Below, piece by piece: positions 481 to 63,117 of a DNA stretch of 64,000 nucleotides (position 1 is the stretch's first letter; every line of letters starts with the position of its first letter). The stretch covers positions 31,848 to 95,847 of the forward strand of contig JAJYNO010000024.1 of NCBI GenBank assembly GCA_021786295.1, in the 5' to 3' direction. This stretch comes from a bacterium. GTDB taxonomy: Bacteria; Elusimicrobiota; Elusimicrobia; Elusimicrobiales; UBA9959. The notes below the pieces were generated by a model. The model had not been told where the DNA came from. It made no database searches and saw only the letters and a program-made list of their open reading frames with translations. The position numbers and the translations under genes are program-made.

Positions 481-1286
481 AGCTGGGACAGATAGCCTAT
501 CTCAACTGCTACCCGTTCTATTACCATATGCTGGAGCGAAACCCGCTGCCAGGCGTGGAAATGTTCCCCCGCCTGCCTTCCGAGCTCAACCGCCTGATGG
601 CCGAGCGCAAGCTGGACCTGAGCCCGGTCTCGGCCGCGGCCTACGCGGACCTGGCGGACTCCGCCGCGCTGCTGCCGGAGTTCTGCATAGGCTCCAAGGG
701 ACCGGTGGGTTCCGTCGCGCTCATCGGCAATGTCCCGATAGAGGAGCTTTCCGGCAGGAAGCTGGCCCTGACCTCGGCCTCGCGCACCTCCGTGACGCTG
801 CTGAAGATAATCCTGAAGAAGTTCTACGGCGTCGAGCCGGAATACGCGCGGTCGGGCCCGGCCCCGAGCCTGCGAGAATACGACGCCGCGGCGGTGATAG
901 GCGACCACGCCATGACTCCGGAGGCCGACAACGCGCCTTACCGCTACGACCTGGGAGAGCTGTGGCTCGCGAAGACGGGGCGACCGGTGGTCTTCGCGGT
1001 CTTCGCCGCCGGGAAAACGGCCGCGGCGGCGGCCCCGGAGGCTTTCAGGGCGGCTGTCGCCTCCTATAAGGCCTCGCTGCGCTGCCTGGCCGAAGAACGC
1101 CGGGCGCTGGTGGCCGCCGCAGAGCGCGCCTACCCCTCCGTCACCTGCGACGTGGACGCCTATTTCTCCGGCCTGCGCTACGATTTCACTGACGAGATGA
1201 AGGACGCGCTCAGTTTCTACCTCGCGGCCGGCGCGGAGCTGGGCCTGCTGAAGGAAGTGAAGGAACTGGAGTTCCTGGAACTATGA
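477..1286 (+). CDS. mqnA: Chorismate dehydratase MqnA (futalosine pathway)
   Basis: 269 aa. N-terminus MKLGQIAYLNCYPFYY and overall periplasmic-binding-like MqnA/DUF178 pattern. Embedded between mqn genes with 4-nt overlaps on both sides. Confidence 0.8.
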   Translation: MKLGQIAYLNCYPFYYHMLERNPLPGVEMFPRLPSELNRLMAERKLDLSPVSAAAYADLADSAALLPEFCIGSKGPVGSVALIGNVPIEELSGRKLALTSASRTSVTLLKIILKKFYGVEPEYARSGPAPSLREYDAAAVIGDHAMTPEADNAPYRYDLGELWLAKTGRPVVFAVFAAGKTAAAAAPEAFRAAVASYKASLRCLAEERRALVAAAERAYPSVTCDVDAYFSGLRYDFTDEMKDALSFYLAAGAELGLLKEVKELEFLEL

Positions 1287-2356
1287 CCGCCGCCCTCAAA
1301 AAGAAGATCTTCGCCGGAAAGCGAATAACCCCCGCGGAGGCCCTGTCGCTGTTCTCGTGGGACCTGCTGGAGCTGGGCGGGGCCGCCGACTTCCGCCGCA
1401 GGCTGGTACACCCGCAGAACACCGTCGGTTTCATCCTGGACCGCATTATAAATTTCACCAATATCTGCGAGGCCTGCTGTTCTTTCTGCGCCTTCCACTC
1501 GCGCGCGGCCCTGCCGCCGTACGAGCTGAGCGTAAAAGAGATCCTGCACAAGACCGGCGAGCTGGCCGCCATGGGCGGCAGCCAGGTAATGCTGCAGGGC
1601 GGCCTGCATCCGGACCACGGCATAGAACATTATGCCGGCCTGCTGAAGGCCGTTAAGAAGAAGTACCCTGGTATCGCTTTACATTCCTTTTCTCCCAGCG
1701 AGCTCGTGCACGCGGCTAAGAAGAGCCGCCTGCCGCTGGACGAGGCTTTAATTCGGCTGAAGGCGGCGGGGCTGGCCTCCATGCCCGGCGCTTCCGACCT
1801 GCTGGTGGACCGGATCCGCTCCAAAGTGAGCCCCCGCAAGATAACCACGGCGCAGTGGGAGGAGGTCATGCGCGCGCTTGCCCGCCACGGGCTGCCTTCT
1901 TCCGCCACGATGACCTACGGCATGGGAGAGACCCTGCGCGAGCGCGTGAAACACCTGGAAGTGGTGCGCCGCACGCAGGACGCCACCGGCATCATCCGCG
2001 CCTTCATCCCTTGGTCCTTCTCTCCGGGCAACACTAGACTTCCGGACATCGTCCCCGCCACCGGAGTGGATTACCTGAAGATAGTGGCCGTCTCGCGCAT
2101 CTTCCTGGACAACGTGCGCTACATACAGGCCGGCTGGCTCACGGAAGGGCTGAAGCTGGCACAGGTCGCTCTGGCCATGGGAGCCAACGACATGGGCGGC
2201 GTGCTGACCGAGGAGAGAGTGGTGAAGGCCACCGGCTCCGGCGCCAGGGCCTGCGCCGAAGAGTTCATAGACCTGATAAAGAACGCCGGCCGCGCGCCGG
2301 TGCTGCGCGATTCCGCCTACCGCGTCATAGACCGCCGCCCATGGAGGAAAAAATGA
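1283..2356 (+). CDS. Radical-SAM futalosine-pathway enzyme (MqnC/MqnE family; position next to mqnD suggests MqnC)
   Basis: 357 aa. CX3CX2C radical SAM motif in NICEACCSFCAF. CofH/MqnC/MqnE-like C-terminal region (GANDMGGVLTEE). Confidence 0.8.
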   Translation: MTAALKKKIFAGKRITPAEALSLFSWDLLELGGAADFRRRLVHPQNTVGFILDRIINFTNICEACCSFCAFHSRAALPPYELSVKEILHKTGELAAMGGSQVMLQGGLHPDHGIEHYAGLLKAVKKKYPGIALHSFSPSELVHAAKKSRLPLDEALIRLKAAGLASMPGASDLLVDRIRSKVSPRKITTAQWEEVMRALARHGLPSSATMTYGMGETLRERVKHLEVVRRTQDATGIIRAFIPWSFSPGNTRLPDIVPATGVDYLKIVAVSRIFLDNVRYIQAGWLTEGLKLAQVALAMGANDMGGVLTEERVVKATGSGARACAEEFIDLIKNAGRAPVLRDSAYRVIDRRPWRKK

Positions 2357-3147
2357 CGGAGCTTTCCCTCGCCTTCTCGCCCTGCCCCAACGACACCTTC
2401 ATCTTCCACGCCCTGCTGCACGGTCTGGTCGGCGACGGCAGCTACGGCTTCAAGCCCTTCATAGACGACGTGGAGACGCTGAACACCGCCGCTTTCGAGA
2501 AGCGCTTCCAGGTGACCAAGCTCTCCGCCGGCGCGTGGCTGCGGCTCAAGGACGACTACGAACTGCTGGACTCCGGCGGAGCGCTCGGCTTCGGCTGCGG
2601 GCCGCTCGTAGTGGCCGCCGCCGGCAAAAAGCTGACCCCGGAGTCGCGCATAGCGGTGCCGGGCCTCAACACCACGGCCCTGATGCTCTTCAAAGGCTGG
2701 AACCCGGCGCTTAAGAACCTCGCCGAGGAGCGCTTCGACCGGATCATGCCGGGGATACGCGACGGAAAGTACGACGCCGGGCTGGTCATCCACGAGGGCC
2801 GCTTCATCTACAAGGACTTCGGCTGCGAGAAGCTGGCCGACCTGGGCGAGTGGTGGGAGAAAGAGACCGGCTGCCCGGTGCCGCTGGGCTGCATAGCGGT
2901 AAGGAAGGACGCCGGCACGATAAAGCACGCGCCGGCCATAGACAAACTGATCCGGGAATCGGTGAAGCACGCTTTCGCCCACCCGGAAAAACCGCGCGAG
3001 TTCATCCGCGCCAACGCCCCTGGCATGAGCGACGCCGTCACGGACGCGCACATCAAGCTCTACGTCAACGATTTCTCGGTCTCGATGGGCGAGAAAGGCC
3101 GCGAGGCCTTCCGCCTGCTGGAGAAAAAATGCGCCGCGGCCCTGTAG
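2341..3147 (+). CDS. mqnD: 1,4-dihydroxy-6-naphthoate synthase MqnD
   Basis: 268 aa. N-terminal LSLAFSPCPNDTFIFHAL motif typical of MqnD. Alternative start ATG 2353 would form an ATGA overlap with the upstream stop. Confidence 0.8.
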   Translation: MEEKMTELSLAFSPCPNDTFIFHALLHGLVGDGSYGFKPFIDDVETLNTAAFEKRFQVTKLSAGAWLRLKDDYELLDSGGALGFGCGPLVVAAAGKKLTPESRIAVPGLNTTALMLFKGWNPALKNLAEERFDRIMPGIRDGKYDAGLVIHEGRFIYKDFGCEKLADLGEWWEKETGCPVPLGCIAVRKDAGTIKHAPAIDKLIRESVKHAFAHPEKPREFIRANAPGMSDAVTDAHIKLYVNDFSVSMGEKGREAFRLLEKKCAAAL

Positions 3148-3743
3148 CCCTGCTTTTCGCCACGCTGCCGGAGGCTGAGCCTTTCATAAAAGGCCTCAAA
3201 CTCAAAAGGACCGTCTCCGCTCCGTTCCCGGTATACAAAGGCCGCGGCCTGGCCCTGGTCCTTTCCGGCATAGGCAAGGCCGACGCCGCCATGGCGGCGG
3301 CCTGGACCTGCGAAAGGCTCTCCCCCCGCGTGCTGGTCAATCTCGGCGCGGCCGGCGCTGTCGGAAAGAAGCTGGATCCCGGGGACTGCCTTCAGATCTC
3401 GCGCGCGGTAGAGCCGGACAGACCCGGCCTCAGGACAGGGGCCCCCCGCGAGCATTTCCCGGAAGCGCTAAAAGGATTCAGGAACGCGGTAATAGCCACT
3501 CAGGACCGGCCGATCCTGTCAGCCGCCGACAGGCGCCGCCTGCTCCGGCTGGCGGACCTGGCCGACATGGAGACCTCCGCCTTCATCCAGGCCTGCCGCA
3601 GGTTCGGCCGAAGCTGTTTCGCCTTCAAGTTCGTAACGGACGCACCCGGCCATTCCTCGGGCGAGGACATCGTGCGCGGCATCCGGAAGCACAGGGACTC
3701 CTTCTTCAGTTTCTTCCTCTCCGCCGTCCTCCCCTCTCTCTAA
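3129..3743 (+). CDS. mqnB: Futalosine hydrolase / nucleosidase-family protein MqnB
   Basis: 204 aa from the internal ATG of track ORF 2850-3743 (the upstream part overlaps mqnD out of frame). PNP/MTAN-type fold motif LVLSGIGKADAAMAAAW. Last gene of the mqn cluster. Confidence 0.7.
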   Translation: MRRGPVALLFATLPEAEPFIKGLKLKRTVSAPFPVYKGRGLALVLSGIGKADAAMAAAWTCERLSPRVLVNLGAAGAVGKKLDPGDCLQISRAVEPDRPGLRTGAPREHFPEALKGFRNAVIATQDRPILSAADRRRLLRLADLADMETSAFIQACRRFGRSCFAFKFVTDAPGHSSGEDIVRGIRKHRDSFFSFFLSAVLPSL

Positions 3744-3749
3744 AAAGGT

Positions 3750-3850
3750 AAAAAGGGGGACAGGCTACTTTTTTACCTCAAAAAAGTCTTTGAATCACAA
3801 GAACAATTTTGAGTCCAAAGAAGCGAAAAAAGTAGCCTGTCCCCCTTTTT
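3750..3850. repeat. 101-bp AT-rich element bounded by perfect 25-bp inverted repeats (long hairpin / MITE-like)
   Basis: 3750-3774 AAAAAGGGGGACAGGCTACTTTTTT is the exact reverse complement of 3826-3850. An inner 7-bp pair is CTCAAAA 3777-3783 with TTTTGAG 3807-3813. Confidence 0.6.
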
Positions 3851-3860
3851 TGACAATAAA

Positions 3861-3895
3861 GAACGGCGCGGGGTGAGCCGCGCCGTTCTTTTTTT
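3861..3895 (+). terminator. Rho-independent terminator between convergent mqnB and protease genes
   Basis: 11-bp stem GAACGGCGCGG 3861-3871 with CCGCGCCGTTC 3878-3888, followed by a T7 run at 3889-3895. Confidence 0.7.
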
Positions 3896-3913
3896 GCCGT
3901 TTAAGGCTTGAAC

Positions 3914-4906
3914 TTAGTTCCAGGCCTTCGTGCCGTCGAACATCGGGGCGACGCGCTGCCAGGTCTTCTCGCTCTGGGCCAGGGCGGAGGGGGCCTTCAT
4001 GCCGCCGTCGCTGTAGGCGATGGTGCTCAGGCCGAAGTCGGTCTGGGAGCTTCCGACCTCGGAATACGAGATGCGGAAGAAGCCGTTCTCGCCCCAGTTG
4101 GGACCCCAGCTGTTCTTCACGATGAAGTACTGGCCCTTGTCGTTGTAGCCGACCAGCAGTATACCGTGACCGCCCAGCTTCTTGCCGGAGGTGTAGGAGT
4201 ACACGCCGGACTTGTAGTGCATGAAGTCCTCATACACCATCATCGCGGTGGGCAGGGGGCCGTACTGGTTCAGAGCGGCTTTAAGGTCGTTGACGCTCTG
4301 GTTTATGGAACCCCAGTCGGCCACTTTGTAGGCCTCGCTCTGCCAACCCTGGGCGGCATCGGAGCAGGTCCCGTCGGTAGCCGTGTAGGGATAGTCCGAC
4401 TCCGGAGGCAGACCGGTGCTCTTTATGAAGCTGGCGTCCAGCTGGCCGCCCTGGCAGGAGCCCGCGCCGCTGCAGGAGATCATGACCTGCTCGGAGAGGT
4501 CCAGGTCCTGGCCGGGCATGTTCTGAGTGCGAAGCACGTAGGCCTCAAGGCCGCCGGTCATCGCGAAGGCCCAGCAGGAGCCGCACTGGCCCTGGTCCCT
4601 GGCCGGGGTGACGAAGTCGCCGCCGTGATTGCGCCAGTCGAGGGACGCCGGGAGCCTGCCCGACCGGGACAGGGATATCGGGGGAGCCTTTATAGGCTGG
4701 AAGTTCAGGCCGACGTAGTACTTCCAGTTGGCCGGGTTGGCGGAAACACTGGTCTCGCCGGCTACCCACTTGGCGCCGGTGCGCTGTATGGCTTCCTGCA
4801 CCTGGCTGATCTGGTCCTTTACGTTCCCCCTGAGGGCCTGCTGACCAAAAGAAGGCCCGGCGGCCAACAGGGCCGCGATCGCGATCAAGCTCTTCATTTT
4901 TACCAT
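3914..4906 (-). CDS. Secreted papain-family (C1A) cysteine protease
   Basis: 330 aa. Signal peptide MVKMKSLIAIAALLAAGPSFG. Catalytic Cys in QGQCGSCWAF, His in GGHGILLVGY, Asn region VKNSWGPNWGENGF. AGGAGG lies 4 nt upstream of the ATG. Confidence 0.85.
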   Translation of the reverse strand: MVKMKSLIAIAALLAAGPSFGQQALRGNVKDQISQVQEAIQRTGAKWVAGETSVSANPANWKYYVGLNFQPIKAPPISLSRSGRLPASLDWRNHGGDFVTPARDQGQCGSCWAFAMTGGLEAYVLRTQNMPGQDLDLSEQVMISCSGAGSCQGGQLDASFIKSTGLPPESDYPYTATDGTCSDAAQGWQSEAYKVADWGSINQSVNDLKAALNQYGPLPTAMMVYEDFMHYKSGVYSYTSGKKLGGHGILLVGYNDKGQYFIVKNSWGPNWGENGFFRISYSEVGSSQTDFGLSTIAYSDGGMKAPSALAQSEKTWQRVAPMFDGTKAWN

Positions 4907-8736: not shown

Positions 8737-9816
8737 TCAGCGGGACAGCAGCCCGGCTATCCCCAGGTGGCCGCGGAAGAGCGCCACGGCCGCGAGCAGC
8801 AGGACCAGCAGCAGCGCGGCCGCCACGGCGCTCCTGTAGCTGGTCCCGCCTGGCGGCGGAGGCAGCATCAGGTTCTCCTCGTGACTGGCCACGTAATCGG
8901 CGTAGATGTCGCAGGCGGAGATGACGTAGACCGGGTGAAGGAAGAGCATTATGGCTCCGACGGCCGCGACCAGGGGCACCCCTGCCCAGAAATAGAACTT
9001 GAAGATGCCCTGCTCCACCGGGGCATGGAAATTGACCAGACGCGGGAAGGCGATGAAGAAGCAGATGGTGCCTATGTAGGTCCCCACGCCGATGATCCAG
9101 CACAACGCCGAATAGCCCGCCCGCAGGATGGCCACGTCGGCGAACCTGTCGTGCACAAGCCCGACGGAGCGCTTGCCGGCGTCCAAAAGGCCGCGGCCGG
9201 TCACCAGCGCGGGCAGTATGCCTATGGTGGCGAGCTTCCAGGCGTAGTAGAGCGGCTCGGCCATGACCCTCTCTATCGTGCCGCTGCCGTTCTTTTTGGG
9301 CAGGCGGTCCAGGATGCGGTTCACGGTCCACCAGCCGTCTATCCACTGGAAGATCCAGATGGGCCAGGCCTCCGGCAGCACTATCCTCAGGCATTTGAGG
9401 ATGGTGGATCCCTGGCCCTGCCGGTTGAGGAAGTGCACCGCGCCCATGCAGCCGTTCAGCAGACCCAGCGGGAAGGCGACCGCGCCCACCACGATGAAAG
9501 ACCAGGCGAAGAGTATCAGGTCCGCTATCGGGGAGCCGTGCTGGCTGCCGGCGTCGTGCCAGACCGAAGGGGGGATCCATCCTATCATCCTCACCCACAG
9601 GAAATAGCCGGCGGCTATGCAGGCCCACTGCAGCAGAGCGAAGGTCAGTATTTCCTTTTCCAGAAAGGCGAGTTTGACGCTGAACTTGGCGCGCTTCCAG
9701 AAGCCGGAGAAGCCTGTGCCCAGCGAAGGCCGCCATTCCGACATGCTGGTGACTCCGTAAACGCCGCTTTTCACGTCGGCCATGGCGTCGAAATACGGTT
9801 TGAAGAATAGGGCCAT
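8737..9816 (-). CDS. Uncharacterised polytopic inner-membrane protein
   Basis: Multiple hydrophobic helices, Trp-rich loops. I prefer ATG 9816 (MALFFKPYF) because the track GTG start (9864) lies in the loop of a terminator hairpin, with an in-frame TGA 4 codons upstream. Confidence 0.6.
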   Translation of the reverse strand: MALFFKPYFDAMADVKSGVYGVTSMSEWRPSLGTGFSGFWKRAKFSVKLAFLEKEILTFALLQWACIAAGYFLWVRMIGWIPPSVWHDAGSQHGSPIADLILFAWSFIVVGAVAFPLGLLNGCMGAVHFLNRQGQGSTILKCLRIVLPEAWPIWIFQWIDGWWTVNRILDRLPKKNGSGTIERVMAEPLYYAWKLATIGILPALVTGRGLLDAGKRSVGLVHDRFADVAILRAGYSALCWIIGVGTYIGTICFFIAFPRLVNFHAPVEQGIFKFYFWAGVPLVAAVGAIMLFLHPVYVISACDIYADYVASHEENLMLPPPPGGTSYRSAVAAALLLVLLLAAVALFRGHLGIAGLLSR

Positions 9817-9840
9817 CGCGACAATGATACAAAATTGGGC

Positions 9841-9873
9841 AAAAAGCGAGAGCCCCCGAAACACGGGGGCTCT
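9841..9873 (-). terminator. Intrinsic terminator/attenuator hairpin immediately upstream of the membrane-protein gene
   Basis: Minus strand reads AGAGCCCCC-GTGTTTC-GGGGGCTCT followed by CGCTTTTT. 9-bp GC-rich stem. Confidence 0.6.
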
Positions 9874-10163
9874 TCACTCCGGCGCAGGCCGGACACCGCA
9901 TTGGGGGCGGCCGGGGGACCGACGGGGCTCAAAACGCCGCCGAAGGGCCGGAACGCCCGCCCGGGCCGTGGCGACCTCGCCGCGGGACGGGGACCCGGGG
10001 GACCGCATGCCTACGCACTGCCAGCGGGCCGGGGAAAGCGCCGGGGCCGGGGCAACCCCCGAACCGACCGAACAAGCACACTGCACCGGGCCCCGCACCG
10101 CTGCCAGACCAGACCGCACCGCGGGACCCTCGACGAACCGGCGCTGTAAAAAGATCGGACTGC
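9874..10163 (-). ncRNA. Candidate structured leader / sRNA (class unknown) between a consensus promoter and a terminator
   Basis: About 290 nt, very GC-rich. All frames give only Arg/Pro/Gly-rich ORFs. Bracketed by the promoter at 10170-10198 and the terminator at 9841-9873. Confidence 0.35.
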
Positions 10164-10169
10164 AAATCT

Positions 10170-10198
10170 AATATAACAGACGCCCTTTGACTTGTCAA
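10170..10198 (-). promoter_or_regulatory. Near-consensus sigma70 promoter
   Basis: Minus strand reads TTGACA (10198-10193), exactly 17 nt, TATATT (10175-10170), inside an AT-rich patch. Confidence 0.6.
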
Positions 10199-10263
10199 GA
10201 CCCATAAAGGGCCTATGGCGATATTTTTTCAGCGGCGGATCTTTTACGTCGGAGGAGGGCGGC

Positions 10264-11181
10264 TCAATATCTGGCCAGGGCCGTCTTGTAGTATTTCCAG
10301 AGCGCGGCGGAGGAATGGGTGGGCTGGCCGTACGGGCTGCCAGGCAGGGAAGCCCAGGTCCCGTTCAGCCTCTTGAGCGCCGCCGTGAAATTGGCGTACA
10401 CGTCCGACTTCTCTACGGCCTTGTAGGCGCCGGCGCGGCGGATTATCTCCATCACGGCCTTCTCCTGGCTGGGCGGCGTGAAGTCCGCCAGGCCGAGGCT
10501 GCGGGCCAGCGAATCCCAGGTAGAAGAAAGGAACTGGTAGCGGCCGGCCGCGTCCGAGCACAGGTGCCCGGAGCAGATCCTCTTGCGCGGATGATCGGCG
10601 TAGCTGCTGAAGGTCACGAAGGTGAAGATGTAGTCGTAGTGCTCGTTGACCCCTTCCGCGTAGGCGAGCGTGTCCAGGAAGGCCCGGACGTTCCTGGGCA
10701 GCTCCCAGGCGCCCCCCGCGGAGCTGGCCGAGACGTCGGCCATGTTCACGTAGCCTTTCCGAAGTCCGCAGCCAGGGAGCGGATCGGCCAAACGGACTAT
10801 CACATAGTCCCCCTCGAAACCGGGCCTGCCGGCGGTCCTGTAAACGGTATTTGCGGCCAGGGCGCAGCCTCCGGCCGCGCCGGCGGCCGCCGCAAGATAA
10901 GCCTGCTCTTTGCCGGTCCTGAAAAAATCTCCGGCGGGAACCGCGCCCCTGCTGATGTTCCCGTCCGGCCATTTGAAGCCCGGGTTGTCGTTATCGGGCG
11001 GAAGGTACTGCCTGGCCTCCGTGAAGCCGACGGCCGCCGGGGGCGTGGCCGCCGGGGGAAGAGGCGCGGAGACGCCGTTTCCGGAGCCGGCCTGGTCCAG
11101 CAGGTCGCCGAAAGCCTGGGCCGAGGCCAGCGTCGGGGCGGCCAGCAGCAGGGCGAGCAGGGCGGCTTCCATCCTCTTCAT
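10264..11181 (-). CDS. Secreted GH104 (phage lambda R-like) lytic transglycosylase
   Basis: Start at MKRMEAALLALLLAAPTLASA (alternative ATG 11199). C-terminal LDTLAYAEGV...AAGRYQFLSSTW matches the GH104 catalytic region. The track ORF to 11991 is a spurious extension over marC. Confidence 0.75.
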   Translation of the reverse strand: MKRMEAALLALLLAAPTLASAQAFGDLLDQAGSGNGVSAPLPPAATPPAAVGFTEARQYLPPDNDNPGFKWPDGNISRGAVPAGDFFRTGKEQAYLAAAAGAAGGCALAANTVYRTAGRPGFEGDYVIVRLADPLPGCGLRKGYVNMADVSASSAGGAWELPRNVRAFLDTLAYAEGVNEHYDYIFTFVTFSSYADHPRKRICSGHLCSDAAGRYQFLSSTWDSLARSLGLADFTPPSQEKAVMEIIRRAGAYKAVEKSDVYANFTAALKRLNGTWASLPGSPYGQPTHSSAALWKYYKTALARY

Positions 11182-11288
11182 GCCTATATTATTGCGCATG
11201 GGCCCGGAATGCGCAAGGGCGTCTGGCCCCCCGGTCAATAGGCCCAAAGACCCAGACCGCGACCGAAAGGAAAGCCGGGGCGGGAATA

Positions 11289-63088: not shown

Positions 63089-63117
63089 TTGACCCTGCGG
63101 TCAGTATGGTGTATACT
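63089..63117 (+). promoter_or_regulatory. Candidate sigma70 promoter with overlapping palindromic operator, upstream of the TolC-like gene
   Basis: TTGACC 63089-63094, 17 nt, TATACT 63112-63117. Inverted repeat ATATTGACC (63086-94) / GGTCAGTAT (63099-107), 1 mismatch. Confidence 0.55.

What the first reader, a model, noticed from the sequence alone, without database searches (positions are those of the whole stretch)
9816..10198. Near-consensus promoter, ~290-nt GC-rich non-coding leader and terminator ahead of an unknown membrane protein (riboswitch/attenuator or sRNA candidate)
Seen in sequence: the minus strand carries TTGACA, exactly 17 nt, then TATATT (10198-10170) in an AT-rich patch just after the GH104 gene stop. 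Transcription from there enters about 290 nt (about 10163 to 9874). By my rough count of sampled stretches this is about three quarters G+C, much richer than other intergenic regions here, which are AT-rich. All six frames yield only Arg/Pro/Gly-rich ORFs. The stretch ends in a 9-bp GC hairpin followed by GCTTTTT (9873-9841), 25 nt before the first ATG (9816) of an uncharacterised polytopic membrane protein. The track GTG start (9864) lies in the hairpin loop, with an in-frame TGA 4 codons upstream. Inference: without another promoter, the membrane protein is expressed only by terminator read-through. That is the classic riboswitch or attenuator architecture. Alternatively the unit is a stand-alone ~320-nt sRNA. 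I could not match it by eye to a known riboswitch class.
Basis: partly seen in the sequence, partly recalled or inferred. Interest (0 to 1): 0.7.

Follow-up and report, generated by a model that had tools for sequence, protein, structure and literature searches.

The report
New adenine-poor small RNA gene
The GC-rich "leader" is a free-standing, strongly promoted small RNA gene of a family absent from Rfam, found in about 50 Elusimicrobia-type contigs; it has almost no adenines, carries a variable array of CGGU repeats, and is not a riboswitch for the membrane protein next to it.

Summary
The minus strand carries TTGACA-17-TATATT with a TG extension (10198-10170), about 320 nt of 71-82% G+C sequence, and a strong intrinsic terminator (9877-9841).

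The riboswitch/attenuator reading fails. The same promoter-RNA-terminator unit occurs in about 50 distinct contigs. Its downstream genes fall into 36 clusters among 46 loci, and some are convergent. In five close relatives, two other genes separate it from the membrane-protein gene.

Length differences among close relatives are not multiples of 3. Covariation supports helix P1, a nested 3' domain, a pre-terminator hairpin and an extended terminator stem.

There is no Rfam match for the window or for 17 other members, and no literature match.

Two features are unusual:
- The core is only 1-10% A, against 18% for the strand.
- A G/U-rich insert of 37-173 nt inside P1 carries YGGU repeats spaced 5-6 nt, with copy number varying between close relatives.

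Function is unknown. My best guess, at about 0.3, is an abundant trans-acting RNA that binds protein through the repeat array.

The parts
10221..10254 (-). Conserved block CTCCGACGTAAAAG and an A-tract upstream of the -35; possibly an UP-element-like region of the promoter
   Evidence: The sequence CTCCGACGT(A/G)AAAAA plus an A/T run recurs just upstream of the -35 in L002, L003, L005, L006 and L022. Its function is inferred, not tested.
10170..10198 (-). Sigma-70-type promoter: -35 TTGACA (10198-10193) lying inside the inverted repeat TTGAC-AA-GTCAA (10198-10187), a 17-nt spacer, and a TG-extended -10 TATATT (10175-10170)
   Evidence: It is invariant in eight relatives that were found without using the promoter as a query.
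9841..10163 (-). The sRNA transcript, about 323 nt. The predicted start is G at 10163 and the 3' end falls in the U-run at 9845-9841
   Evidence: The 5' end aligns with GYAGUCC, 7 nt after the -10, in all family members. The boundaries are predicted; no transcript data were available.
10146..10163 (-). Conserved 5' motif (window GCAGUCCGAUCUUUUUAC; family GUAGUCCUGNUCUYU). Its core resembles a BoxA antitermination box
   Evidence: Position-specific counts are. 33 of 50 members lie within 3 mismatches of GYTCTTTAANA, against about 5 in shuffles, but the AANA half is not conserved. The consensus is taken from PMC5725501.
10138..10145 (-). Helix P1, 5' strand (AGCGCCGG)
   Evidence: It pairs with 10044-10037. 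Compensatory variants occur in relatives, and 6 of 8 pairs changed on both sides, with 0 of 500 shuffles as high.
10088..10129 (-). Hairpin P2 (GGGUCCCGC / GCGGGGCCC) enclosing the repeat loop GGUGCGGUCUGGUCUGGCAGCGGU (10120-10097)
   Evidence: In relatives the corresponding insert is expanded to as much as 173 nt, with up to 25 GGU.
10049..10060 (-). Hairpin P3 (GGGG-GUUG-CCCC), followed by GGCC
   Evidence: It is conserved just 5' of the P1 3' strand in most members.
10037..10044 (-). Helix P1, 3' strand (CCGGCGCU)
9968..10036 (-). Middle domain of G+C-rich hairpins. It is shortened or absent in the shortest family members
   Evidence: RNAalifold on eight relatives and the alignment of 3' parts. 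The structure here is only weakly tested.
9905..9958 (-). Nested 3' domain: Ha (GGGCG 9958-9954 with C-GCCC 9909-9905), Hb (CCGG 9951-9948 with CCGG 9914-9911) and an inner hairpin
   Evidence: Covariance model R1 and alignment A5: in this helix group 8 of 9 pairs changed on both sides and 93% of cells are paired.
9878..9893 (-). Hairpin Hd (UCCGGC-CUGC-GCCGGA)
   Evidence: The closing pair varies as U-A 23 / C-G 13 / U-G 4. 3 of 4 pairs changed on both sides.
9841..9877 (-). Intrinsic terminator with an extended stem (GUGAAGAGCCCCCG ... CGGGGGCUCUCGC) and a U-run at 9845-9841
   Evidence: GUG/CGC changes to UUG/CAA in relatives, and one pair reads G-C 20 / A-U 9 / U-A 9.
9824..9829 (-). TATCAT, a -10-like hexamer 7 nt before ATG 9816; possibly the membrane-protein gene's own promoter, giving a leaderless or near-leaderless mRNA
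   Evidence: Sequence. TATCAT also follows the terminator in L001, L003, L005, L006 and L114. This is inference only, and there is no good -35.
8737..9816 (-). Neighbouring gene for an uncharacterised 359-aa membrane protein. It is not part of the RNA unit
   Evidence: No Pfam or NCBIfam family matches. Homologues were found in 23 genome loci titled as Elusimicrobia.
10264..11241 (-). Upstream neighbouring gene for a secreted lambda-lysozyme-like (GH104-type) protein
   Evidence: Matches 1am7/3d3d at E = 2e-24. The same gene family lies upstream of the RNA in 13 loci.

Best explanation
Window 10198-9841 (minus strand) is a complete, free-standing gene for a structured small RNA of about 323 nt. 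The RNA belongs to a family that Rfam 15 does not contain and that I could not find in the literature. The family members come from contigs resembling GC-rich Elusimicrobia.

How it is built, as shown here: a near-consensus, TG-extended sigma-70 promoter starts transcription at about 10163. The RNA opens with a conserved 15-nt motif. Helix P1 then closes a G/U-rich domain that holds the variable YGGU-repeat array and hairpin P3. After that come several G+C-rich hairpins, a nested 3' domain, a short hairpin and a long intrinsic terminator, where transcription ends.

How it probably works, by inference: it is made in large amounts and acts in trans rather than on the adjacent gene. The array of CGGU/GCGGU units recurs every 5-6 nt and expands and contracts between close relatives, while the helices around it stay fixed. 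I think this array is a multivalent binding platform that titrates or scaffolds an unidentified RNA-binding protein, in the way CsrB/RsmZ titrate CsrA or the trp leader wraps TRAP.

The near absence of adenine would keep the RNA free of start and stop codons, of Shine-Dalgarno-like GGA sequences, and of A-rich sites recognised by nucleases or Hfq. The conserved 5' motif may be a BoxA-like element that protects this untranslated transcript from Rho.

Confidence is about 0.9 for 'stand-alone structured sRNA gene, not a leader', and about 0.3 for 'protein-binding repeat platform'.
For: **The unit is conserved as a whole**
- blastn and nhmmer find it in 7 of 23 relatives' loci, with promoter and terminator intact.
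- A metagenome scan with the promoter word, followed by profile, composition and terminator filters, gave 52 copies, 50 of them unique, 202-596 nt long.
- Model R1 recovers all of them at E from 1e-24 to 1e-5. It finds nothing better than E about 1e-3 in the control loci, and nothing in the 16 genome loci that lack the unit.

**It is not tied to the downstream gene**
- Downstream genes form 36 clusters among 46 loci, some convergent, while upstream genes fall into 3 main clusters.

**It is non-coding**
- Close relatives measure 345, 356 and 376 nt.

**It is structured**
- P1: 6 of 8 pairs have compensatory changes, for example GCACCGG/CCGGUGC, GAGCCUG/CAGGCUC, GCUCCGG/CCGGAGC and GCGUCG/CGACGC.
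- 3' domain: 94.2% of cells are paired. 17 of 29 pairs changed on both sides, against 7.0 in shuffles (0 of 500 as high). The covariation score is 0.221, against at most 0.05 when partners are slid.

**Composition**
- A makes up 1-10% of the core (window 11 of 263), against 18.3% for the window strand.

**The repeat array**
- GGU is 1.76-fold enriched. Spacings of 5 and 6 nt occur 155 and 105 times, against about 19 each expected. GCGGU is the commonest 5-mer.
- Isolated GG is preceded by C in 71% of cases and followed by U in 79%.
- The insert inside P1 is 45% G and 25% C, with 10.4 GGU per 100 nt against 4.4 elsewhere. Its length ranges from 37 to 173 nt.
- GGU count tracks G-minus-C excess (rho 0.69), so expansions of the array are not matched by a C-rich partner strand.
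- GGA is depleted to 0.38-fold.

**Not a known family**
- No Rfam family matches.
Against: - There are no expression data, so the ends and abundance of the transcript are predicted only.
- No candidate binding protein was identified, and no RNA-binding protein gene is consistently linked to the RNA.
- The repeats are partly self-complementary through G-C and G-U pairs, for example CCGCGGUUGCG/UGCGGUUGCGG. They may therefore form wobble-rich helices rather than a single-stranded platform.
- Repeat expansion could be neutral slippage in a tolerant loop.
- The MFE of the whole RNA is not better than that of shuffled sequences (z = -0.93).
- The metagenome set was collected with an exact promoter word, so it is biased towards one promoter type, and promoter conservation within that set is circular.
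- The P1 mini-alignment was cut around the complementary strands, and alignment A5 is fitted to the model. Both lean towards the proposed structures.
Confidence: 0.4

Rival explanations
1. Riboswitch or transcription attenuator: the RNA is the 5' leader of the membrane-protein mRNA, and a ligand or factor controls read-through of the terminator at 9877-9841.
For: In the window and in L001 the unit directly precedes the membrane-protein gene on the same strand. In the window only 25 nt separate the U-run from the ATG, and no strong promoter lies between them.
Against: - The unit is separated from that gene by two other genes in L002, L003, L005, L006 and L022.
- It precedes unrelated or convergent genes elsewhere: 36 clusters among 46 loci.
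- 16 genomes with the membrane protein lack the unit within 4 kb.
- The terminator stem is conserved and covaries as a plain terminator, and no conserved alternative pairing was found.
- No Rfam aptamer matches.
- A -10-like TATCAT precedes the ATG.
Confidence: 0.05
2. A base-pairing regulatory sRNA: the conserved 5' end (GUAGUCCUGNUCUYU, which contains the anti-Shine-Dalgarno-like UCCU) or the C-rich loops pair with mRNAs. The structured body provides stability.
For: - The first 15 nt are the most conserved unpaired stretch.
- Seeds at the 5' end followed by an intrinsic terminator are typical of trans-acting sRNAs. This point rests on general knowledge.
- C-rich unpaired motifs are plentiful.
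Against: - At 200-450 nt with several covarying helices, the RNA is atypically large for a seed-type sRNA.
- The window holds no complementary target longer than 9 nt, apart from the RNA gene's own opposite strand. That test has low power.
- The idea does not explain the repeat array or the A depletion.
Confidence: 0.2
3. A 6S- or Ms1-like RNA that binds RNA polymerase and tunes global transcription.
For: It is a stand-alone RNA with a strong promoter, seen once in each locus, and its size matches Ms1 at about 300 nt. No 6S RNA was detected in the sequences held.
Against: - No Rfam 6S or Ms1 hit, even at E up to 10 for the window region and up to 5 for 17 further members.
- The covariation-supported architecture is a 5' domain closed by P1, followed by a series of hairpins. 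It is not one long rod with a central bubble formed by pairing of the 5' and 3' ends.
- Length ranges from 202 to 596 nt.
Confidence: 0.1
4. The G/U repeats act through structure rather than through a protein. They would form G-quadruplexes or long wobble-rich helices, for example as a cation or temperature sensor or as a driver of RNA self-association.
For: GG tracts spaced 5-6 nt apart fit a two-tetrad G4 pattern. The repeats can also pair with one another through G-C and G-U pairs.
Against: [quoted passage not shown]
- The strong preference for C before GG and U after it (71% and 79%) is more than a quadruplex needs.
- GGG runs are few.
Confidence: 0.1
5. The interval encodes a small protein made only from A-free codons (Gly, Arg, Pro, Ala, Val, Cys, Trp, Leu, Ser, Phe).
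For: With almost no A there are no stop codons, so long ORFs are open in several frames.
Against: - Length differences among close relatives are not multiples of 3 (345, 356 and 376 nt), and the variable insert ranges from 37 to 173 nt.
- There is no conserved start codon or ribosome-binding site.
- Conservation follows base pairing, including G-U pairs.
Confidence: 0.02

Closest known systems
CsrB/RsmY/RsmZ-type protein-sponge sRNAs
   Same: It is a stand-alone, strongly transcribed sRNA with an intrinsic terminator. It carries many copies of one short motif, and the copy number varies between relatives while the scaffold is kept.
   Different: The motif is YGGU/GCGGU rather than A(N)GGA, and GGA is in fact depleted to 0.38-fold. 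The repeats are packed at 5-6 nt intervals in one domain rather than one per hairpin loop. No CsrA link was shown, there is no Rfam hit, and A is extremely depleted.
TRAP-binding trp leader RNA of Bacillus (GAG/UAG triplets separated by 2-3 nt)
   Same: Triplet repeats recur every 5-6 nt, in a run of 5 to about 25 copies.
   Different: The triplet is different (GGU). The RNA is a free-standing gene rather than a leader, the copy number is not fixed, and no TRAP homologue was sought or found. The resemblance rests on recalled knowledge of TRAP sites.
6S RNA and mycobacterial Ms1
   Same: It is a free-standing RNA behind a near-consensus promoter, seen once in each locus held. Its abundance is predicted, not measured. 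Its size is similar to Ms1.
   Different: It does not have the rod-with-central-bubble architecture, and no Rfam match was found.
BoxA (NusB/NusE) antitermination boxes of rRNA operons, the suhB leader and CRISPR arrays
   Same: A G-N-U-C-U-Y-U core sits at a fixed place 9-15 nt from the start of a long untranslated transcript, behind an rRNA-like strong promoter. BoxA is known to protect non-coding transcripts from Rho (PMC7665894).
   Different: The AANA half of GYTCTTTAANA is not conserved. Position 2 is A in 26 of 49 members, whereas the consensus has C or U there. The BoxA of this clade's own rRNA operons is unknown, because none of the sequences held carries rRNA.

Membership tests
Riboswitch / transcription-attenuation leader | The element sits upstream of the same gene or functional class of genes across species | tested here: not met
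   Downstream genes fall into 36 clusters among 46 loci. Some are convergent, and in 5 close relatives two genes are inserted before the membrane-protein gene.
Riboswitch / transcription-attenuation leader | A conserved alternative pairing (antiterminator) competes with the terminator | tested here: inconclusive
   The terminator covaries as a simple extended hairpin. The 5' GNUCUYU could pair with GAAGAGC, but the variable N is not compensated. No systematic search for alternative folds was done.
Riboswitch / transcription-attenuation leader | The aptamer belongs to a described class | tested here: not met
   No Rfam hit at E up to 10 in 9500-10500, none at gathering score in the window, and none consistent across 17 members.
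Stand-alone bacterial sRNA gene | It has its own promoter and its own intrinsic terminator, conserved together as a unit | tested here: met
Stand-alone bacterial sRNA gene | A discrete transcript is detected | not testable with these tools
   No transcriptome data were available.
Structured non-coding RNA | Base pairs are maintained by compensatory changes | tested here: met
   P1 has 6 of 8 pairs changed on both sides. The 3' domain has 17 of 29 such pairs, with 0 of 500 shuffles as high and low scores for slid controls. Caveat: both alignments were fitted or cut with the proposed structure in mind.
6S RNA | Match to the Rfam 6S models | tested here: not met
6S RNA | A single long irregular hairpin with a large central bubble, closed by pairing of the 5' and 3' ends | tested here: not met
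   The supported helices form a 5' domain closed by P1, followed by serial hairpins.
6S RNA | Binds RNA polymerase holoenzyme and templates product RNA (pRNA) | not testable with these tools
   This is a biochemical property.
CsrB/Rsm sponge RNAs | Multiple GGA motifs, mostly in hairpin loops | tested here: not met
   GGA occurs at 0.38 of the expected rate.
CsrB/Rsm sponge RNAs | A multivalent array of one short motif with variable copy number | tested here: met
   The motif is YGGU. There are 9-38 GGU per RNA, and the insert ranges from 37 to 173 nt. This supports 'works like', not membership.
BoxA antitermination element | Match to the consensus GYTCTTTAANA (gamma-proteobacterial) near the 5' end of the transcript | tested here: inconclusive
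   The core GNUCUYU is invariant in position. 33 of 50 members have at most 3 mismatches, against about 5 in shuffles. The 3' half is not conserved (consensus).
BoxA antitermination element | The same box is present in the rRNA leader of the same clade, and it binds NusB/NusE | not testable with these tools
TRAP-type wrap-around RNA | Triplet repeats separated by 2-3 nt spacers | tested here: met
   GGU spacings of 5 and 6 nt occur 155 and 105 times, against about 19 each expected.
TRAP-type wrap-around RNA | GAG/UAG triplets, and an MtrB (TRAP) protein encoded in the genome | tested here: not met
   The triplet is GGU and A is nearly absent. The presence of TRAP was not tested.

The most novel reading that the evidence does not exclude
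The RNA is the titrating or scaffold partner of an unknown oligomeric RNA-binding protein that reads CGGU repeats spaced 5-6 nt apart. That would make it the core of a global post-transcriptional control system in Elusimicrobia, analogous to Csr/Rsm or TRAP but built from different parts. Near-total avoidance of adenine would then be a design feature that keeps the RNA away from ribosomes, from nucleases that cut at A, and from Hfq/CsrA-type binders.
Probability: 0.25. Interest if true: 0.8.

Novelty: new variant of a known kind. Interest (0 to 1): 0.6.

Why it matters
Elusimicrobia are almost entirely uncultured, and in these searches their non-coding RNAs were essentially absent from Rfam. 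In about 193 kb of related contigs searched against Rfam, only a TPP riboswitch and a DUF3800-V RNA were recognised.

This family has a strong conserved promoter, several covarying helices and a wide spread across contigs. It is therefore probably an abundant RNA with a housekeeping or global regulatory role.

Two of its properties have no parallel that I know of among described bacterial RNAs: a core of 200-400 nt that is almost free of adenine, and a rapidly changing array of CGGU repeats inside a fixed scaffold. If the array binds a protein, it would define a new sponge or scaffold system. If it does not, the adenine avoidance still needs an explanation.

For annotation, the result removes a false riboswitch candidate. 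It also corrects the membrane-protein start to ATG 9816, rather than the GTG inside the terminator loop.

Tried and rejected
- **Rfam and ARAGORN.** Rfam was run at gathering score on the window, in E-value mode on 9500-10500, and in E-value mode on 17 other members. Nothing relevant came up. ARAGORN found no tRNA or tmRNA.
- **Single-sequence folding.** The energy is no better than for shuffles (z = -0.93), so it is uninformative for such G+C-rich sequence.
- **Global alignment.** A MAFFT plus RNAalifold run on all 50 full-length RNAs was too noisy because of the variable insert. I replaced it with domain-wise alignments and a covariance model.
- **Coding reading.** Rejected on frame-breaking length differences.
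- **Target search.** A search for mRNA targets of the 5' end within the window found only 9-mers at chance level.
- **rRNA leader comparison.** I looked for an rRNA operon in all sequence held, to compare its BoxA. None was present.
- **Source contig.** An exact look-up of the 375-aa protein found nothing on record.
- **Literature.** Searches for Elusimicrobia non-coding RNAs found nothing. Searches for GGU-repeat binders found nothing bacterial, only eukaryotic GGU-binding proteins.
- **Protein families.** Pfam and NCBIfam gave no family for either flanking gene. Only the PDB search identified the lysozyme domain.
- **Other transcripts with the same promoter word.** These were checked against Rfam without result, apart from a TPP riboswitch elsewhere in L078.
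Full report
**1. Checking the observation**

The minus strand reads TTGACA (10198-10193), then 17 nt, then TATATT (10175-10170), with TG before the -10. It is the only perfect TTGACA-N17-TATANT in the 64-kb window. Only 0.09 matches with up to one mismatch are expected by chance.

Downstream, G+C is 0.71-0.82 in 100-nt windows, against 0.43-0.55 in the flanks. The strand is also strikingly poor in A.

A stem of 10 pairs at 9873-9849 is followed by CGCUUUUUG. ATG 9816 lies 25 nt after the U-run. The annotated GTG 9864 sits in the hairpin loop, with an in-frame TGA four codons upstream. Homologues of the membrane protein align from residues 1-8 of the ATG-9816 product.

The upstream gene ends in a phage-lambda-lysozyme-like domain (1am7, E = 2e-24).

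**2. Known families**

Rfam 15 gives nothing at gathering score in the whole window. In E-value mode on 9500-10500 it gives only terminator-like noise with E above 0.9. ARAGORN finds no tRNA or tmRNA. The minimum free energy is no better than that of shuffled sequence (z = -0.93), as expected for sequence this rich in G+C.

**3. Relatives**

Homologues of the membrane protein were found in 23 genome loci whose record titles name Elusimicrobia, Elusimicrobiales or Elusimicrobiaceae MAGs. blastn and nhmmer with the intergenic region recover the whole unit (promoter, RNA and terminator) in seven of them.

Only L001 has the unit directly before the membrane-protein gene, as in the window. In L002, L003, L005, L006 and L022 it lies about 2.8 kb upstream. 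The intervening genes are either a TldD/PmbA-like pair or a convergent sulfatase-like pair.

The promoter word CTTGACAAGTCAA-N7-CTGNTATA is invariant in these eight sequences, so I used it to scan metagenome contigs. Of the 120 contigs returned, those that carry the same RNA separate cleanly from the rest by composition. Their bodies have at most 11% A, 62-78% G+C and a terminator, while the others have more than 13% A.

This gives 52 copies, 50 of them unique, with lengths of 202-452 nt plus one of 596 nt.

**4. Leader or free-standing gene**

Crude gene calls around the 50 copies show that downstream genes fall into 36 clusters among 46 loci, on either strand. Upstream genes fall into three main clusters: lysozyme-like (13 loci), a protein of about 280 aa resembling a polysaccharide deacetylase (9), and RecQ-like (5). 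The last two labels come from reading the sequences, not from a database search.

The gene calls are rough and a few are spurious antisense ORFs. The real cases I checked by sequence (sulfatase-like, TldD-like, TPR protein, ATPase) are clearly unrelated to one another.

Sixteen genome loci with the membrane protein have neither the promoter word nor a match to model R1. After the terminator, downstream genes commonly show their own -10-like or complete promoters. In the window, TATCAT (9829-9824) lies 7 nt before ATG 9816, and the same hexamer follows the terminator in L001, L003, L005, L006 and L114.

The riboswitch/attenuator reading is therefore not supported.

**5. Non-coding and structured**

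Close relatives differ in length by amounts that are not multiples of three (345, 356 and 376 nt).

*Helix P1.* In the window, AGCGCCGG at 10145-10138 pairs with CCGGCGCU at 10044-10037. P1 sits at a fixed place: after the 5' motif on one side, and between a GGGG...CCCC hairpin plus GGCC and GGUUUCCCC on the other.

Relatives carry compensated variants: GCACCGG/CCGGUGC, UGAGCCUG/CAGGCUCG, UGCUCCGG/CCGGAGCG and GCGUCG/CGACGC. On a 27-sequence alignment, 6 of 8 pairs changed on both sides. No shuffle out of 500 reached that, and slid controls score 0.03-0.08 against 0.226. The caveat is that the constructs were cut around the complementary strands.

*The 3' part.* I built a covariance model, R1 (135 positions, 29 pairs), from a 24-sequence alignment. 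It recovers every family member at E from 1e-24 to 1e-5. The best hit in a control locus has E about 1e-3.

On the 50-sequence model alignment:
- 94.2% of cells are paired.
- 17 of 29 pairs changed on both sides, against 7.0 in shuffles (0 of 500 as high).
- The covariation score is 0.221, against at most 0.05 for slid partners.

The supported helices are a nested pair (Ha/Hb, 9958-9905), the hairpin UCCGGC-CUGC-GCCGGA (9893-9878), and a terminator stem that extends into GUGAAGAGC...GCUCUCGC. In relatives GUG/CGC changes to UUG/CAA. Many pairs are G-U, which fixes the minus strand as the functional one.

**6. Unusual features**

*(a) Adenine is almost absent from the core.* Examples are 4 of 316 nt in L005, 5 of 337 in L001 and 11 of 263 in the window. 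Across the family the range is 1-10%, while the window strand as a whole is 18.3% A. The A's that remain cluster in the first 25 nt or so and just before the terminator.

*(b) Helix P1 encloses an insert of 37-173 nt.* It is 45% G, 25% C, 26% U and 4% A, and carries 10.4 GGU per 100 nt against 4.4 elsewhere.
- GGU is 1.76-fold enriched. Successive GGUs lie 5 or 6 nt apart 155 and 105 times, against about 19 each expected.
- GCGGU and UGCGGU are the commonest 5-mer and 6-mer. GGA is depleted to 0.38-fold.
- An isolated GG is preceded by C in 71% of cases and followed by U in 79%, so the unit is YGGU.
- Copy number changes between close relatives: 11, 14 and 18 GGU in the inserts of L003, L006 and L005. 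It correlates with G excess (rho 0.69), so expansions are not matched by a C-rich partner strand.
- In the window the repeats (GGUGCGGUCUGGUCUGGCAGCGGU, 10120-10097) form the loop of hairpin P2, GGGUCCCGC/GCGGGGCCC.
- The repeats can also pair with each other through G-C and G-U pairs, so whether they are single-stranded remains open.

*(c) The first 15 nt are conserved (GUAGUCCUGNUCUYU).* The core GNUCUYU resembles BoxA (GYTCTTTAANA; PMC5725501). 33 of 50 members lie within three mismatches, against about 5 in shuffles. However, the AANA half is not conserved, and no rRNA leader of this clade was available for comparison. BoxA is known to protect long untranslated transcripts such as CRISPR arrays from Rho, and its consensus drifts between phyla (PMC7665894). 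This remains a lead, not a finding.

**7. Mechanism**

Shown here: the interval is a complete promoter-to-terminator unit. It is conserved as a unit, structured, non-coding, and independent of the downstream gene.

Inferred: the RNA is made abundantly and acts in trans. The feature that evolves fastest, inside an otherwise fixed scaffold, is a multivalent array of one short sequence-specific motif. This is the pattern seen in RNAs that titrate or wrap proteins. CsrB/RsmZ do so with GGA motifs, and the TRAP-binding leader does so with triplets every 5-6 nt.

I therefore favour a protein-binding platform, at about 0.3. Avoiding A would remove start and stop codons, Shine-Dalgarno-like GGA sequences and A-rich binding or cleavage sites. 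This last point is conjecture.

The rivals are:
- a base-pairing sRNA that uses the conserved 5' end (0.2);
- a 6S/Ms1-like RNA polymerase binder (0.1), which the helix architecture does not fit;
- a structure-only role for the repeats (0.1). Two-tetrad RNA quadruplexes are generally unstable on their own (PMC11602125), and the C/U preferences around GG go beyond what a quadruplex requires;
- an attenuator (0.05);
- a coding region (0.02).

**8. Novelty**

There is no Rfam match for the window or for 17 further members, and three searches of the paper library found nothing. The family is a new one within a familiar category, the stand-alone structured bacterial sRNA. Its composition and repeat architecture have no parallel I know of among described families.

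**Limits of this work**
- There are no expression data.
- The metagenome set was collected through an exact promoter word and the scan was truncated. The family is probably larger, and promoter conservation within that set is circular.
- The taxonomy of the metagenome contigs was not checked.
- The middle domain (10036-9968) is only weakly tested.

Noticed in passing
L026, L032, L041, L057, L067, L087, L109 (downstream of the promoter word; positions): The same promoter word, CTTGACAAGTCAA-N7-CTGNTATA, heads a conserved hairpin leader (ACUUUGCCCUGAAC...GUGUCAGGGRAAGUU). The leader precedes a protein of about 310-345 aa that is N-terminally anchored and rich in Ser, Gly and Ala. These contigs range from about 30% to 55% G+C. 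None of the four of these loci that were searched against Rfam gave a hit.
   Followed up: partly
L039, L076, L127, also L100 and L126 (downstream of the promoter word): An element of about 90 nt (GGACGYCRGC...CUCCCCGAAnnnGGGGAAGCG) ends in its own terminator and sits upstream of a gene resembling glutamate formimidoyltransferase/cyclodeaminase. It looks like a riboswitch or attenuator candidate. L039, L076, L126 and L127 gave no Rfam hit at gathering score; L100 was not searched.
   Followed up: partly
window 10187-10198; all loci: The -35 hexamer lies inside an inverted repeat, TTGAC-AA-GTCAA. The repeat is invariant in relatives that were found without using it as a query. It occurs once in the 64-kb window (0.08 expected), yet it heads at least four different conserved transcripts in other contigs. 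It may be an operator for a shared regulator, or an extended -35.
   Followed up: partly
window 9816-9840: TATCAT (9829-9824) lies 7 nt before ATG 9816, and no Shine-Dalgarno sequence is present. The membrane-protein mRNA may therefore be leaderless. The same TATCAT follows the sRNA terminator in L001, L003, L005, L006 and L114, even though the downstream gene differs.
   Followed up: partly
L002, L022 versus L003, L005, L006 (about 1240-4000 in locus coordinates): Different two-gene cassettes occupy the same position between the sRNA terminator and the membrane-protein gene. One is a convergent sulfatase-like pair and the other a TldD/PmbA-like pair. The site just after the sRNA seems prone to rearrangement.
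   Followed up: no
L119 and L128, about 45 nt after the sRNA: A partial second copy of the terminator's 3' arm (GGGGGCUCUCUCAUUG) follows the RNA.
   Followed up: no
window 63089-63117 (+): This is the second near-consensus promoter in the window (TTGACC-17-TATACT). It lies ahead of a gene whose product starts MMKKLPLTALALL..., which looks like a TolC-type outer-membrane protein.
   Followed up: partly
L135 1505-1601 (+); L078 12451-12568 (-): These are the only two Rfam matches at gathering score in about 193 kb of related contigs: a DUF3800-V RNA (56.3 bits) and a TPP riboswitch (78.3 bits). Neither is connected with the sRNA.
   Followed up: no
window 9862-9864: The GTG start given for the membrane protein lies in the loop of the sRNA terminator. 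Homologues support ATG 9816 as the real start, so that GTG start is probably 16 codons too long.
   Followed up: yes
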